DNA of 64,000 bases from Mytilus edulis (taxonomy: Eukaryota), in NCBI RefSeq assembly GCF_963676685.1, contig NC_092351.1, forward strand, positions 44,020,001-44,084,000, in the 5' to 3' direction. Position numbers: made by a program. Each line of letters begins with the position of its first letter. Position 1 is the stretch's first letter. Below are positions 21,001 to 24,000 of this stretch, piece after piece.

Positions 21001-24000
21001 TGGGCATTCCAATGTGGTGTATCTTCTGAACTCATTCAATTACAAGGGGATTGGAAGAGTGACGCCTATAAATTGTATCTTAGATATGGTTTAAATGATA
21101 AGATGCAAGTCTCGTCAAAAATGATGTGTCGACTGTGATATATGTTTTTTATTTGGTGTTATAATTTTATTAGTTAATAATTTAAATTATATTGTAGGTT
21201 TGAAGGCATGGGGTAAACCCAGTTTAGTTATTTCAGATTCAATTTTAAAGTATCTTCCAGAGATGAGGAATACGCAACTTCATGCCTTTGGGGGCCTGAG
21301 TTGTGAAATGCTTTTAAGGAAATTAAAAAACAGGGTATTCACCTGGTACCATTTTAATAATATAATTGTACATGTTGGTACAAATGATGTATTTAATATA
21401 AATGCTAATTTATTTGAAAAATACATTCGTGATATTATACATGAATTGAGAATTTGTAATCCAGATTGTGTTATTATTTTATCTTCTGTATTACCTAGAC
21501 CATGTGATTTTGATCAGTCTGAATTGTTCGTCATTAATTTTAACAATGTACTAAAACAGTTGGCTTCCTCTCTAACTGATGTCAAATACATGCAATGTGA
21601 GAAGACTTTTTATAGTAGAGTGAGAAAGCCAATTAACACTTTGTTTACAGTTGACAAATTACATTTGTCCACCACTGGTCTTAATAAAGTTTTTAGCTTT
21701 ATAGCTAATACTCTTGCACATGTTTAAATCCTTTAAGGTAGAATGAATTTTATTTGTGTTTGAAACTTGATTAAGAATTTAAAATTCAAATTTACTGGTA
21801 AATTGCAGCTTAATTTTAGGAGAAGGTTTACTCTTAATCTCCGCACGAGAGAGAGTAGACTTTTGATCCTGTTTTTTCTATTATTCTAGAAGGTTTACAC
21901 TGTTGACTCTATCATGCATCCTTGTTAGTACAATGGTTAGTACACCTGTCCTTGTGATGGGGGATCGAGGTTCGAGTCCTCGACTTGGATTATAGAAGAT
22001 GGTGTAGACTCACTCTCTTATTATTTTAGAATTATTATAAAAGTTGCAATTTGCAGTTTCTGTGATTTGGTTATTTTTTTGGCGGACCTTCGGTTTGGCG
22101 GGTATGAAATTTATATTTCATTTGTATTTCATAGAATTTTTAATTTGTTATGCTTCATTCTTTAAATTTATGAAGATACTACTTAGTAGTTCTTTAATTC
22201 AGTTTATTTGTCAGTTATAATCTATGATCACTTTGTATTTCATTTGTATTATATTCTTGACATATGTATATATATGATTATGACTACCTGCTAAGCCTAA
22301 ATAAAAGTTTTTATTTAAACGGTATTTTCTTCTGAATTAATTTGTAAATTTTTGATTAAAAATGATTAATTAATGAAGAATCAGAAAAACAATTTAGTGA
22401 ACTGGTAAATGGACAATTGGTCTCACTTCATTTAACAGTGAGCACATATCTGGTCAAGGTTTAGTTGCTCTGCTTTCTAAATTAAATTAAACACGTTTTT
22501 TATTGGTCAAGCAGTACAGTAATTTATATTGGATAAAAATTTCAATTTAAAAGTAGAACTCACTATTGATTTTCACTTTTCAGAAACACCAGAAAACAGG
22601 TAGTCAACATTTTTAATAATTTAGAATTTTTATGTTTAAATATGTCTTAGTTTGTCGTTGAAACTTCTATCAGCGTAGCCAATTTGTTAAAGAACATTGT
22701 GTTTCGTCGTTTGTTCTTTTTTCAAAACCCTCCCTCCCATTCCCTTAAGGTGGAATATGTTTGTACGAGGCGGGTATGAAATTTATATTTCATTTGTATT
22801 TCATAGAATTTTTAATTTGTTATGCTTCATTCTTTAAATTTATGAAGATACTACTTAGTAGTTCTTTAATTCAGTTTATTTGTCAGTTATAATCTATGAT
22901 CACTTTGTATTTCATTTGTATTATATTCTTGACATATGTATATATATGATTATGACTACCTGCTAAGCCGAGGCGGGTATGAAATTTATATTTCATTTGT
23001 ATTTCATAGAATTTTTAATTTGTTATGCTTCATTCTTTAAATTTATGAAGATACTACTTAGTAGTTCTTTAATTCAGTTTATTTGTCAGTTATAATCTAT
23101 GATCACTTTGTATTTCATTTGTATTATATTCTTGACATATGTATATATATGATTATGACTACCTGCTAAGCCTTTTTTGAAAAAAGAACAAACGACGAAA
23201 CACAATGTTCTTTAACAAATTGGCTACGCTGATAGAAGTTTCAACGACAAACTAAGACATATTTAAACATAAAAATTCTAAATTATTAAAAATGTTGACT
23301 ACCTGTTTTCTGGTGTTTCTGAAAAGTGAAAATCAATAGTGAGTTCTACTTTTAAATTGAAATTTTTATCCAATATAAATTACTGTACTGCTTGACCAAT
23401 AAAAAACGTGTTTAATTTAATTTAGAAAGCAGAGCAACTAAACCTTGACCAGATATGTGCTCACTGTTAAATGAAGTGAGACCAATTGTCCATTTACCAG
23501 TTCACTAAATTGTTTTTCTGATTCTTCATTAATTAATCATTTTTAATCAAAAATTTACAAATTATCCCATCTGTACCACTTTTAAGCTGTGTTCGTCATC
23601 GTCATTTTCATTATAAACTTCTGACCTATTGCATTTGGCAGAATTGTCAACAATTTAAACCAGTTGTGATCCAGTGTTTACGTCCAACTTTCTAAAAAAA
23701 ATTCAACATGCCAAAACATGCGTCACATAAACATTCTGTGTGCCCAGCAATCATAAAATGCAAATTAATAGTTTTGTGTAAACCCTTTGCGCACCTCCAC
23801 AACAGATAATGTAAAGTAGTTTTATTTTTGTTTTGTCCCACAGAATTATCAGCATGAAAATGACACGCCTTTTCATCGTAAGAATTACCATGCAGATAAT
23901 GGTGGAGCATGCTTAAAACAGCATTGGGTCCATGTGTCCGACTTCCATTTTCCCCGATTGTTTGTTGCTCATCAATAGAATAATTCGTTTGCATTGGAAA

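What the first reader, a model, noticed from the sequence alone, without database searches (positions are those of the whole stretch)
21919..21990. Ngaro-type retroelement carries its own tRNA-like module upstream of the terminal repeats
Seen: a 72-nt cloverleaf with consensus A and B boxes and perfect D and T stems, between the SGNH ORF and repeat B1. There is no SINE tail or TSD, and the first T4 run is at ~22024. Relative to a typical eukaryotic tRNA-Asp (from memory), both sides of the T stem differ yet still pair, while the anticodon loop (CCTTGTG) and acceptor stem are non-canonical. Established: YR retroelements lack a classical PBS and their priming is poorly understood. Inference: a self-encoded Pol III RNA, a primer, an RNase P/Z processing signal or a TFIIIC insulator rather than a translational tRNA.
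Basis: partly seen in the sequence, partly recalled or inferred. Interest (0 to 1): 0.75.

Follow-up and report, generated by a model that had tools for sequence, protein, structure and literature searches.

The report
Decayed tRNA copy inside mussel retroelement
A worn-out tRNA look-alike really does sit inside a defective mussel jumping gene, but two related elements lack it, so it is most likely a picked-up passenger rather than a working part.

Summary
Window 21919-21990 (+) is a 72-nt tRNA-like sequence (Rfam tRNA 37.6 bits against a gathering score of 29; ARAGORN). It is the only tRNA hit in the 64 kb. It lies inside a 6,001-nt Ngaro-like tyrosine-recombinase retroelement (17611-23611) of a Mytilus-like host, between the hydrolase ORF and the terminal repeats.

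It is not a working tRNA. The acceptor stem has two non-standard pairs, position 33 is C, position 37 is U, and it folds no better than shuffles.

The functional reading is not supported where I could test it:
- Two related elements with the same gene order lack any tRNA-like sequence at that place. Both do share a conserved block at the start of the first B repeat.
- The element holds no complement to the module's 3' end.
- There is no flanking duplication, SINE tail or LTR signature above chance.

The most likely reading is a lineage-specific, tRNA-derived passenger in a length-variable spacer that may still bind Pol III factors. Copies from the same family could not be examined, because no eukaryotic genome collection was open. 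The element copy itself lacks its reverse-transcriptase domain.

The parts
17611..23611 (+). Whole Ngaro-like tyrosine-recombinase retroelement copy, 6,001 nt, bounded by a 53-nt direct repeat
   Evidence: 53 of 53 identical direct repeat at both ends. The ORF set is gag-like / RNase H remnant / recombinase / hydrolase. No second copy in the window.
17611..17663 (+). Left copy of the 53-nt terminal direct repeat
   Evidence: 100% identical to 23559-23611.
17872..19329 (+). gag-like gene, broken: one in-frame stop
   Evidence: tblastn with the gag ORFs of L001 and L002 matches the C-terminal half (47% and 44% identity, E 3e-52 and 1e-50). One internal stop counted. No Pfam family.
19492..20087 (+). 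Remnant of the RT-RNase H gene, broken: the RT domain is missing (one large deletion relative to L001 and L002), plus one frameshift and one stop in what remains
   Evidence: Only residues 416-618 of 642 (L001) and 391-592 of 616 (L002) find a match. Identity is 49% over 169 aa, E 8e-58. Weak RVT_3 hit, E 0.061. RVT_1 is detected in L001 and L002 but not in the window. Counts.
20191..21138 (+). Tyrosine recombinase gene, 315 aa, ATG to stop, unbroken
   Evidence: Pfam Phage_integrase 30 bits, cut-off 27.1. 858 relatives at E<=0.001; the best named ones are Mytilus edulis proteins at 98-99% over part of the length. Matches L001 residues 1-308 of 316 at 50%.
21200..21727 (+). GDSL/SGNH-type hydrolase ORF, 175 codons, no internal stop and no ATG where L001 has its start
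   Evidence: Lipase_GDSL_2 28.6 bits, below the 32.9 cut-off. 32% identical over 160 aa to the fourth ORF of L001, E 7e-22. That ORF and the L002 one pass the Pfam cut-off (39.3 and 48.6 bits). The first Met is at residue 22.
21728..22054 (+). Length-variable, non-conserved spacer that holds the tRNA-like module
   Evidence: 327 nt here, 200 nt in L002 and 735 nt in L001, measured from the hydrolase stop to the conserved block. No similarity found between the spacers.
21919..21990 (+). The finding: a 72-nt degenerate tRNA-like sequence on the same strand as the ORFs
   Evidence: see the observation check.
22024..22027 (+). First run of four T after the module, a possible Pol III stop
   Evidence: Read. 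The role is an inference.
22055..22119 (+). Non-coding block conserved between families. It contains the run of seven T (22074-22080) and runs into the start of the first B repeat
   Evidence: Local alignment score 55 against L002 5473-5540 and 40 against L001 5758-5809; 0 of 100 shuffles reach either. 33 of 89 alignment columns are invariant.
22094..22296 (+). B repeat, copy 1
   Evidence: 203-nt direct repeat family of 3 copies, 99-100% identical.
22338..22727 (+). 390-nt segment X, first arm of a perfect inverted repeat
   Evidence: 100% complementary to 23175-23564.
22766..22968 (+). B repeat, copy 2
22969..23171 (+). B repeat, copy 3, in tandem with copy 2
23175..23564 (-). Segment X, inverted copy
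23559..23611 (+). Right copy of the 53-nt terminal direct repeat

Best explanation
The module is a degenerate sequence of tRNA origin: a tRNA pseudogene or a SINE-type head without its body. This Mytilus lineage of Ngaro-like elements picked it up in the poorly constrained spacer between the hydrolase ORF and the conserved block at the first B repeat, and it is now copied along with the element as a passenger.

Ngaro-type replication does not need it, because relatives with the same gene order and the same conserved 3' block do without it.

It keeps a full box B and intact D and T arms. It may therefore still bind TFIIIC, or give a short Pol III transcript of about 110 to 160 nt ending at the T runs at 22024 or 22074. 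That would be a side effect and not a step of the element's cycle.

Shown: the module is real, internal and non-canonical. It is absent from two relatives. It has no complementary site and no insertion scars.

Inferred: that it was already in the parent copy, how it was acquired, and any Pol III activity.
For: 1. Real but decayed. Rfam gives 37.6 bits. The acceptor stem has two non-standard pairs, position 33 is C and position 37 is U. Folding energy equals that of shuffles (z = -0.09).

2. Absent from relatives. The genome-contig scan matched 181 stretches to a pattern, of which 4 were confirmed as loci. Two loci (L001, L002) carry gag / RT-RNase H / recombinase / GDSL hydrolase and reach past the hydrolase ORF.
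- ARAGORN finds 0 tRNAs in 4 of 4 loci.
- Rfam finds 0 tRNA hits at E<=1 in 4 of 4 loci.
- Rfam finds 0 tRNA hits at E<=10 in the 2 spacers searched alone.
- The module aligns to no locus above a local score of 22.

3. The same comparison does find a conserved non-coding block 65 nt downstream of the module (scores 55 and 40, 0 of 100 shuffles each). Conserved cis-signals at this distance are therefore detectable, and the module is not one of them. Spacer length varies: 200, 327 and 735 nt.

4. No primer-binding partner.
- The reverse complement of the module's last 18 nt matches only itself at up to 3 mismatches.
- The longest complement anywhere in the element is 8 nt, reached by 292 of 300 shuffles.
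- For the 3' end with or without CCA, it is 7 nt or fewer.

5. Carried by the parent copy (inference). The element's repeats show 0 differences over 53 + 201 + 204 + 390 aligned nt. The module has at least four departures from tRNA rules in 72 nt, so its decay predates this insertion.

6. Precedent. tRNA-derived sequences embedded in retroelements of Mytilus and other bivalves are described (Helenus, PMC10886601). That paper proposes a SINE insertion into the element as their origin.
Against: - No insertion scars prove an acquisition event. There is no flanking duplication above chance, no A-rich or simple-repeat tail, and no TG..CA ends with a 4-nt duplication beyond chance.
- The parts that decayed (anticodon loop, acceptor stem) are those needed for translation. 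The parts needed for Pol III and for tRNA-like shape (D arm, T arm, box B) are perfect, which is what a maintained promoter or processing signal would look like. With four departures this is not significant: by my own arithmetic the chance that all four fall outside the boxes is about 0.2.
- Only two relatives could be compared. Both are about 50% identical in the recombinase and come from another source.
- Copies of the same family, where a lineage-specific function would show, could not be examined.
Confidence: 0.6

Rival explanations
1. A maintained Pol III or TFIIIC module of this element lineage. The tRNA-like sequence is kept because it recruits TFIIIC or Pol III. It would act as a small self-encoded RNA gene or as a chromatin boundary that protects the element's expression. 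Helenus and Cassandra elements are thought to use small-RNA promoters in a similar way.
For: - Box B and the D and T arms are perfect while the translation-specific parts are decayed.
- T runs 34 and 84 nt downstream could end a short transcript.
- The module appears to have been in the parent copy, since the repeats are perfect but the tRNA is decayed.
- There is precedent in bivalve Helenus elements (PMC10886601).
Against: - Absent from 2 of 2 related elements.
- Box A departs at 2 positions from the pattern quoted.
- The run of seven T belongs to a block conserved in relatives that have no tRNA-like module, so it did not evolve as this module's terminator.
- At 6 kb the element is far beyond the length range given for Pol III-driven elements.
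- A single sequence gives no sign of selection.
Confidence: 0.2
2. An RNA-level signal in the element's own long transcript. One form is an RNase P / RNase Z cleavage site that makes a defined RNA end. The other is a cis-encoded primer or RT recognition structure for first-strand synthesis.
For: - Same strand as the ORFs, inside the transcript and upstream of the terminal repeats.
- tRNA-like core intact.
Against: - No complementary site for the module's 3' end anywhere in the element.
- Two central mismatches weaken the acceptor stem that RNase P and Z read. The enzyme requirement is recalled, not tested.
- Fold stability is no better than shuffles, and the cloverleaf is lost in the minimum-energy fold of the 241-nt context.
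- Cleavage there would separate the ORFs from the repeats.
- Absent from relatives.
Confidence: 0.07
3. A private, post-insertion event in this one copy: a SINE, a tRNA retro-copy or a solo LTR of a Helenus-type element landed in the spacer after the element had integrated here.
For: - tRNA-derived SINEs and Helenus elements are common in Mytilus (PMC11481361 and PMC10886601).
- The spacer is unconstrained.
Against: - No flanking duplication above chance (82 of 296 controls as good).
- No tail.
- Only 1 TG..CA candidate with a 4-nt duplication. It starts inside the hydrolase ORF, and the control mean is 1.56. There are 0 TGT..ACA candidates.
- The Mytilida Helenus LTRs in the supplement look different by eye, and a 16-nt stretch of the module is absent from that supplement and from the SINE supplement.
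- The element's repeats are identical, which leaves little time for a later insertion.
Confidence: 0.1
4. A working host tRNA gene that happens to lie in the element.
For: It passes the Rfam gathering score and is called by ARAGORN.
Against: - C at position 33 and U at 37.
- Two non-standard pairs of 7 in the acceptor stem.
- A weak anticodon stem with two G-U pairs.
- The score is only 8.6 bits above the threshold.
- The first T run is 34 nt downstream.
Confidence: 0.02

Closest known systems
Helenus (TRIMp3): non-autonomous LTR retrotransposons with a tRNA-like sequence in their LTRs (Kojima 2024, PMC10886601)
   Same: - A retroelement that carries a non-functional tRNA-derived sequence with boxes A and B kept.
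- Found in Mytilus and other pteriomorph bivalves.
- A non-autonomous element.
- The origin proposed in the paper is a SINE insertion into the element.
   Different: - Helenus is 311-1263 nt long, has LTRs with TG..CA ends, a PBS and PPT, and 4-nt duplications. The tRNA-like part lies in the terminal repeat, where it could drive transcription of the whole element.
- Here the element is a 6-kb tyrosine-recombinase element. The module is a single internal copy outside the repeats, and no LTR signature surrounds it.
- The Mytilida Helenus LTR sequences look unrelated by eye. No computed alignment was made.
tRNA-derived SINEs of bivalves (Martelossi et al. 2024, PMC11481361)
   Same: A tRNA-derived head with a Pol III promoter. 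These are abundant in Mytilus genomes and often nested in other sequence.
   Different: - No conserved body domain, LINE-derived tail or flanking duplication here.
- No other copy in the 64-kb window.
- The supplement table shows no Gln heads, and Asp heads only in three rows; the two shown are Venerida families.
Ngaro elements with an extra hydrolase ORF (tyrosine-recombinase retrotransposons)
   Same: - gag-like, RNase H, tyrosine recombinase and GDSL/SGNH hydrolase in the same order as in L001 and L002.
- Direct repeats after the ORFs.
[quoted passage not shown]
   Different: - This copy lacks the RT domain.
- Its repeat order is A...B-X-B-B-X(inverted)-A, not the A1...B1-A2-B2 scheme.
- No paper found in my searches mentions a tRNA-like part in such elements.
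tRNA-like processing or replication signals in long RNAs (mascRNA-type 3'-end processing; 3' tRNA-like ends of the Mauriceville retroplasmid and of plant viral RNAs). Recalled, no call.
   Same: A tRNA-shaped element on the sense strand of a longer transcript.
   Different: - Those sit at or define the RNA 3' end and are conserved among relatives.
- Here the module is internal, weakly folding and absent from relatives.
- Nothing was tested against these systems.

Membership tests
Functional (translational) tRNA | Cloverleaf recognised by a tRNA covariance model | tested here: met
   RF00005 at 37.6 bits against a gathering score of 29, full length. ARAGORN also calls it.
Functional (translational) tRNA | Seven standard pairs in the acceptor stem | tested here: not met
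   2 of 7 pairs are non-standard. The minimum-energy fold leaves them open.
Functional (translational) tRNA | U at position 33 and a purine at position 37 in a 7-nt anticodon loop (the rule is recalled) | tested here: not met
   The loop is CCTTGTG, so C stands at 33 and T at 37.
Functional (translational) tRNA | Isotype model agrees with the anticodon | not testable with these tools
No isotype-specific models or eukaryotic tRNA references are on hand. ARAGORN reads Gln from the anticodon.
tRNA-derived SINE | tRNA-derived head with boxes A and B | tested here: met
   Box B is complete. Box A departs at 2 positions from the TRGCY...YGG pattern quoted.
tRNA-derived SINE | Body plus a LINE-derived, A-rich or simple-repeat tail | tested here: not met
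   The 64 nt after the module hold no such tail. No other copy of the flanks exists in the window.
tRNA-derived SINE | Flanking target-site duplication | tested here: not met
   The best flanking repeat is 13 nt with one mismatch. 82 of 296 control places do as well.
tRNA-derived SINE | Many dispersed copies in the genome | not testable with these tools
   No eukaryotic genome collection was open. Within the window there are 0 further tRNA-like hits at E<=10.
Helenus / TRIMp3 solo LTR | TG..CA ends with a 4-nt duplication round the tRNA-like part | tested here: not met
   1 candidate, which starts inside the hydrolase ORF, against a control mean of 1.56. 0 TGT..ACA candidates.
Helenus / TRIMp3 solo LTR | Sequence likeness to described Mytilida Helenus LTRs | tested here: inconclusive
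   They look different by eye in supplement part 6 of 10. A 16-nt stretch has 0 exact hits in the whole supplement. No computed alignment was made, because sequence from a paper may not be typed into a tool.
Ngaro-type tyrosine-recombinase retroelement | Tyrosine recombinase ORF | tested here: met
   Phage_integrase at 30 bits, cut-off 27.1. 858 relatives.
Ngaro-type tyrosine-recombinase retroelement | Reverse transcriptase and RNase H | tested here: not met
   Only the RNase H part is present in this copy. The relatives L001 and L002 have both. This is therefore a deletion derivative of such an element.
Ngaro-type tyrosine-recombinase retroelement | Split direct repeats A1...B1-A2-B2 | tested here: inconclusive
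   There are three B copies and a 53-nt repeat at both ends, but the order is non-canonical and includes a 390-nt perfect inverted repeat. L001 shows B...B with 684 nt between them.
Ngaro-type tyrosine-recombinase retroelement | Placement in the Ngaro clade by RT or recombinase phylogeny | not tested
   No tree was built and no reference Ngaro sequence was returned by name. The assignment rests on gene order and the hydrolase ORF.

The most novel reading that the evidence does not exclude
A Mytilus lineage of Ngaro-like elements has fixed a tRNA-derived module in its 3' untranslated region and uses it. It could serve as a Pol III / TFIIIC entry point or as an RNase P/Z-type processing signal in the element's RNA. 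That would make it the first tyrosine-recombinase retroelement with a small-RNA-gene module of its own, a counterpart of Helenus and Cassandra among LTR elements. My evidence excludes an ancient, family-wide module. It does not exclude a young, lineage-specific one.
Probability: 0.15. Interest if true: 0.6.

Novelty: new member of a known kind. Interest (0 to 1): 0.25.

Why it matters
As it stands, this is one more case of a tRNA-derived sequence nested in a retroelement, which is common in bivalve genomes. Its practical value is twofold. It warns that such modules inflate tRNA gene counts, and it shows which part of the 3' region of these elements is truly conserved: the block at the first B repeat, not the tRNA-like sequence.

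If other copies of the family turned out to keep the module with compensatory changes, the parallel with Helenus and Cassandra would extend to tyrosine-recombinase elements. That would also give a handle on how their RNA is processed.

Tried and rejected
1. Alternative genetic code as the cause of the in-frame stops. Rejected: the stops in the long frame are of all three kinds, 2 TAA, 2 TAG and 2 TGA including the terminal one.

2. A 13-nt near-repeat flanking the module as a target-site duplication. Rejected: 82 of 296 control places do as well.

3. A primer-binding site for the module's 3' end. None found.

4. A solo LTR of a Helenus-type element. No terminal signature and no visible likeness.

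5. A second copy of the element, or of the module's flanks, in the window. None.

6. Finding other copies through the protein database, using the 42-codon open frame that covers the module. No candidate was returned. This says little, because such short frames are rarely predicted.

7. The listing of cluster members for the recombinase cluster and the hydrolase ORF. The query could not be made.

8. Reading the long frame through its stops in the Pfam search. The tool does not take stops, so the pieces were searched apart.

9. Likeness between the 5' region, segment X and the corresponding parts of L001 and L002. Nothing above shuffles, except a 26-nt stretch shared by the end of X and the 5' region of the window's own element.

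10. Isotype of origin (Asp or Gln). Left open for want of reference tRNAs. The letters CTGTC, which include GTC, lie just before the loop that ARAGORN reads, so an Asp origin with a small length change is conceivable but untested.
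Full report
**1. The observation**

Window 21919-21990 on the + strand is a tRNA-like sequence. ARAGORN reports one tRNA in the whole window, at 21918-21991, with ttg at the anticodon position. Rfam's tRNA model matches 21919-21990 over its full length at 37.6 bits, with a gathering score of 29 and E 2.6e-4. A permissive rerun at E<=10 gives no other tRNA hit in 64 kb.

- D stem: 4 of 4 pairs. T stem: 5 of 5 pairs. The T loop and the GG of the D loop are canonical.
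- The acceptor stem has two non-standard pairs of seven.
- The anticodon loop reads CCTTGTG, so C is at position 33 and T at 37.
- Against the box A pattern quoted in PMC10886601 (TRGCY...YGG), the module departs at two positions. Box B (GGTTC) is complete.
- The fold is cloverleaf-like but no more stable than shuffles: -19.0 against -18.76 kcal/mol, z = -0.09, 101 of 200 shuffles as good.
- In 241 nt of context the minimum-energy fold does not keep the cloverleaf (z = -0.97, 32 of 200).
- The first run of four T is at 22024-22027 and a run of seven T is at 22074-22080.
- The window holds no N.

**2. The surroundings**

The module lies inside a 6,001-nt element bounded by a 53-nt perfect direct repeat (17611-17663 and 23559-23611). 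On the + strand the element carries the following:

- A gag-like gene (17872-19329).
- The RNase H part of an RT-RNase H gene (19492-20087).
- An unbroken 315-codon tyrosine recombinase (20191-21138; Phage_integrase 30 bits against a cut-off of 27.1).
- A GDSL/SGNH-type hydrolase ORF (21200-21727; 28.6 bits, below the cut-off of 32.9, but homologous to ORFs in relatives that pass it).

After the module come three copies of a 203-nt repeat B (22094-22296, 22766-22968, 22969-23171). There is also a 390-nt segment X (22338-22727) that recurs inverted and 100% complementary at 23175-23564. This is not the textbook A1...B1-A2-B2 order, and I could not resolve how it arose.

The recombinase has 858 relatives at E<=0.001. 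The best named ones are Mytilus edulis proteins at 98-99% identity over part of the length, and an unnamed cluster is 100% identical. The host is therefore a Mytilus or a close relative.

**3. State of the element**

Breaks are counted without places.

- The gag-like gene has one in-frame stop.
- The RT-RNase H gene lacks its RT domain, which is one large deletion relative to two relatives. Its remaining part has one frameshift and one stop.
- The recombinase and the hydrolase ORF have no internal stop. The hydrolase ORF has no ATG where the L001 relative starts.
- Pfam finds RVT_1 in the relatives but not in the window.
- The stops are of all three kinds, so a variant genetic code does not explain them.

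The copy is thus a non-autonomous deletion derivative. Its repeats nevertheless show 0 differences over 53 + 201 + 204 + 390 aligned nt, so it is young. Repeat homogenisation or an assembly effect could be alternative causes.

**4. Related elements**

No eukaryotic genome collection was open.

- 181 stretches matched a peptide pattern and 4 were confirmed.
- These are L001 (JBEVXT010000237.1), L002 (JBEVXV010000574.1), L003 (JBEVXV010000495.1) and L004 (JBEVXV010000243.1).
- All four are short contigs filed under Sedimenticola MAGs. Recombinase identity is 45-50%.
- Their content is that of a eukaryotic retroelement, so I take them for non-bacterial DNA binned with the bacterium (inference).
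- L001 and L002 have gag / RT-RNase H (RVT_1, RVT_3, RT_RNaseH) / recombinase / GDSL hydrolase in the same order as the window.
- L001 extends 1,636 nt beyond the hydrolase ORF and L002 extends 336 nt.
- L003 ends about 170 nt after the recombinase match, and L004 is cut within the recombinase, so neither covers the place in question.

**5. The test across families**

- ARAGORN finds 0 tRNAs in 4 of 4 loci.
- Rfam finds 0 tRNA hits at E<=1 in 4 of 4 loci.
- Rfam finds 0 tRNA hits at E<=10 when the two spacers are searched alone (L001 5000-5830, L002 5250-5608).
- The module aligns to none of the loci above a local score of 22.

The same call shows that the comparison is sensitive enough to find conserved non-coding signals. 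Window 22055-22119, which begins 65 nt after the module and runs into the first B repeat, aligns with L002 5473-5540 (score 55) and L001 5758-5809 (score 40). 0 of 100 shuffles reach either score. In a three-way alignment 33 of 89 columns are invariant. A small hairpin is possible, with 7 pairs, one of which is kept through changes on both sides among 3 sequences.

The stretch between the hydrolase stop and this block is 327 nt in the window, 200 nt in L002 and 735 nt in L001, and shows no similarity. The module therefore sits in a variable spacer next to a conserved signal. It is not part of what these families share. The run of seven T belongs to the conserved block and so predates the module.

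**6. Tests of particular mechanisms**

Primer:
- The reverse complement of the module's last 18 nt matches only itself in the window at up to 3 mismatches.
- The longest Watson-Crick complement of any part of the module in the rest of the element is 8 nt, and 292 of 300 shuffled modules reach that. For the 3' end, with or without CCA, it is 7 nt or fewer.

SINE or retro-copy insertion:
- The best flanking direct repeat (13 nt, one mismatch) is matched or beaten at 82 of 296 control places.
- There is no A-rich or simple-repeat tail.
- No similar sequence lies elsewhere in the window.

Solo LTR of a Helenus-type element:
- One TG..CA candidate with a 4-nt duplication starts inside the hydrolase ORF, against a control mean of 1.56 at 400 places.
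- There are no TGT..ACA candidates, against a control mean of 0.56.

**7. Literature**

- PMC10886601 (Kojima 2024). I read the abstract, Results part 1 of 2, the Discussion, passages, supplement part 6 of 10, and ran a term search of the whole supplement. It describes Helenus: short non-autonomous LTR retrotransposons whose LTRs hold a non-functional tRNA-like sequence with boxes A and B. They occur in Mytilus galloprovincialis and M. coruscus among others, and probably arose by SINE insertion into an element. The Mytilida Helenus LTRs printed there look unrelated to the module by eye. A 16-nt stretch of the module has 0 exact hits in that supplement.
- PMC11481361 (Martelossi et al. 2024). 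I read the abstract and passages and ran a term search of 3 supplementary files. It lists bivalve tRNA-derived SINEs. It has no Gln heads and three Asp rows, of which the two shown are Venerida families. The 16-nt stretch has 0 hits. Its consensus sequences were not compared.
- PMC7192593 (passages only) states that some Ngaro elements encode a hydrolase. It contains neither 'priming' nor 'tRNA'.
- Full-text searches found no account of a tRNA-like part in a tyrosine-recombinase retroelement: Ngaro + tRNA (93 papers; the 20 listed are mostly genome or phage-genome reports, none about a tRNA-like part of such an element), Ngaro + SGNH (2), tyrosine recombinase + retrotransposon + tRNA-like (2, unrelated), DIRS + tyrosine recombinase + reverse transcription + primer (27, 12 listed), and Ngaro + bivalve (17, 15 listed). 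These were search listings only, within that library. bioRxiv supplements are closed.

**8. Reading**

The most likely account (about 0.6) is a tRNA-derived passenger. A decayed tRNA or SINE-head sequence entered the unconstrained spacer of one Mytilus lineage of these elements and is copied with it. Because the repeats are perfect while the module is decayed, the module was probably already in the parent copy (inference). How it entered is unknown, since no scars remain. It may still bind Pol III factors, because box B and both arms are intact.

The rivals are these:
- A maintained Pol III or TFIIIC module of this lineage: 0.2.
- A private insertion after integration: 0.1.
- An RNA processing or priming signal: 0.07.
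- A working tRNA gene: 0.02.

The pattern of decay, with translation-specific parts lost and promoter parts kept, speaks for the second reading. With four departures it is not significant, and it is also what a sequence descended from a SINE would show.

**9. Verdict**

The module is real, internal and not a translational tRNA. It is not a shared feature of Ngaro-type elements and has no primer-binding partner. It is a new member of a known kind, namely tRNA-derived sequences nested in retroelements. Interest is 0.25.

The open point is whether other copies of the same Mytilus family keep the module. That needs the mussel genomes, which were not searchable here.

Noticed in passing
window 22055-22119; L002 5473-5540; L001 5758-5809: A non-coding block at the start of the first B repeat is conserved between elements whose recombinases are only about 50% identical (0 of 100 shuffles reach the scores). 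It holds a T run and a possible small hairpin (7 pairs, 1 compensatory among 3 sequences). It is a candidate for the real cis-acting signal of the 3' region.
   Followed up: partly
window 22094-23611: The terminal architecture is not the textbook Ngaro order. It runs B, X (390 nt), B, B, then X inverted and 100% complementary, then the 53-nt end repeat. Only a 26-nt stretch at the end of X (22702-22727) resembles the element's 5' region (17702-17728). The origin is unresolved.
   Followed up: partly
window 17872-20087: The element copy lacks its reverse-transcriptase domain and has breaks in the gag-like and RNase H parts, yet its repeats are identical. It looks like a young, non-autonomous deletion derivative.
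   Followed up: yes
window 22300-22305: AATAAA lies four bases after the end of the first B copy and after neither of the other two. It is a possible polyadenylation signal (the motif is recalled).
   Followed up: no
window 37415-37458 and 45353-45396: Two identical sub-threshold hits to the type I hammerhead ribozyme (27.5 bits against a gathering score of 34). They lie in a 4.8-kb segment duplicated at 97.8% (32790-37584 and 40764-45522). A further duplicate is 37582-39684 and 53435-55537, at 99.7%.
   Followed up: partly
window 10005-10380, 13200-14260, 14994-16194, 40676-41142: Satellite-like arrays with periods of 8 nt, about 354 nt, 21 nt (with many inverted arrangements) and 14 nt. The weak microRNA-family hits near 32800-33100 and 39800-41400 fall in such AT-rich repeats and look like chance.
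   Followed up: no
window 23692-24084 (-) and 26195-27037 (-): Just right of the element lies an ORF with a DUF7869 domain. Further on are two ORFs of a Tc1/mariner-type transposase (HTH_Tnp_Tc3_2 and DDE_3), apparently split.
   Followed up: no
L001-L004 (contigs JBEVXT010000237.1, JBEVXV010000574.1, JBEVXV010000495.1, JBEVXV010000243.1): Short contigs filed under bacterial MAGs carry a eukaryote-type tyrosine-recombinase retroelement (gag, RT-RNase H, recombinase, GDSL hydrolase). They are probably non-bacterial DNA binned by mistake.
   Followed up: partly
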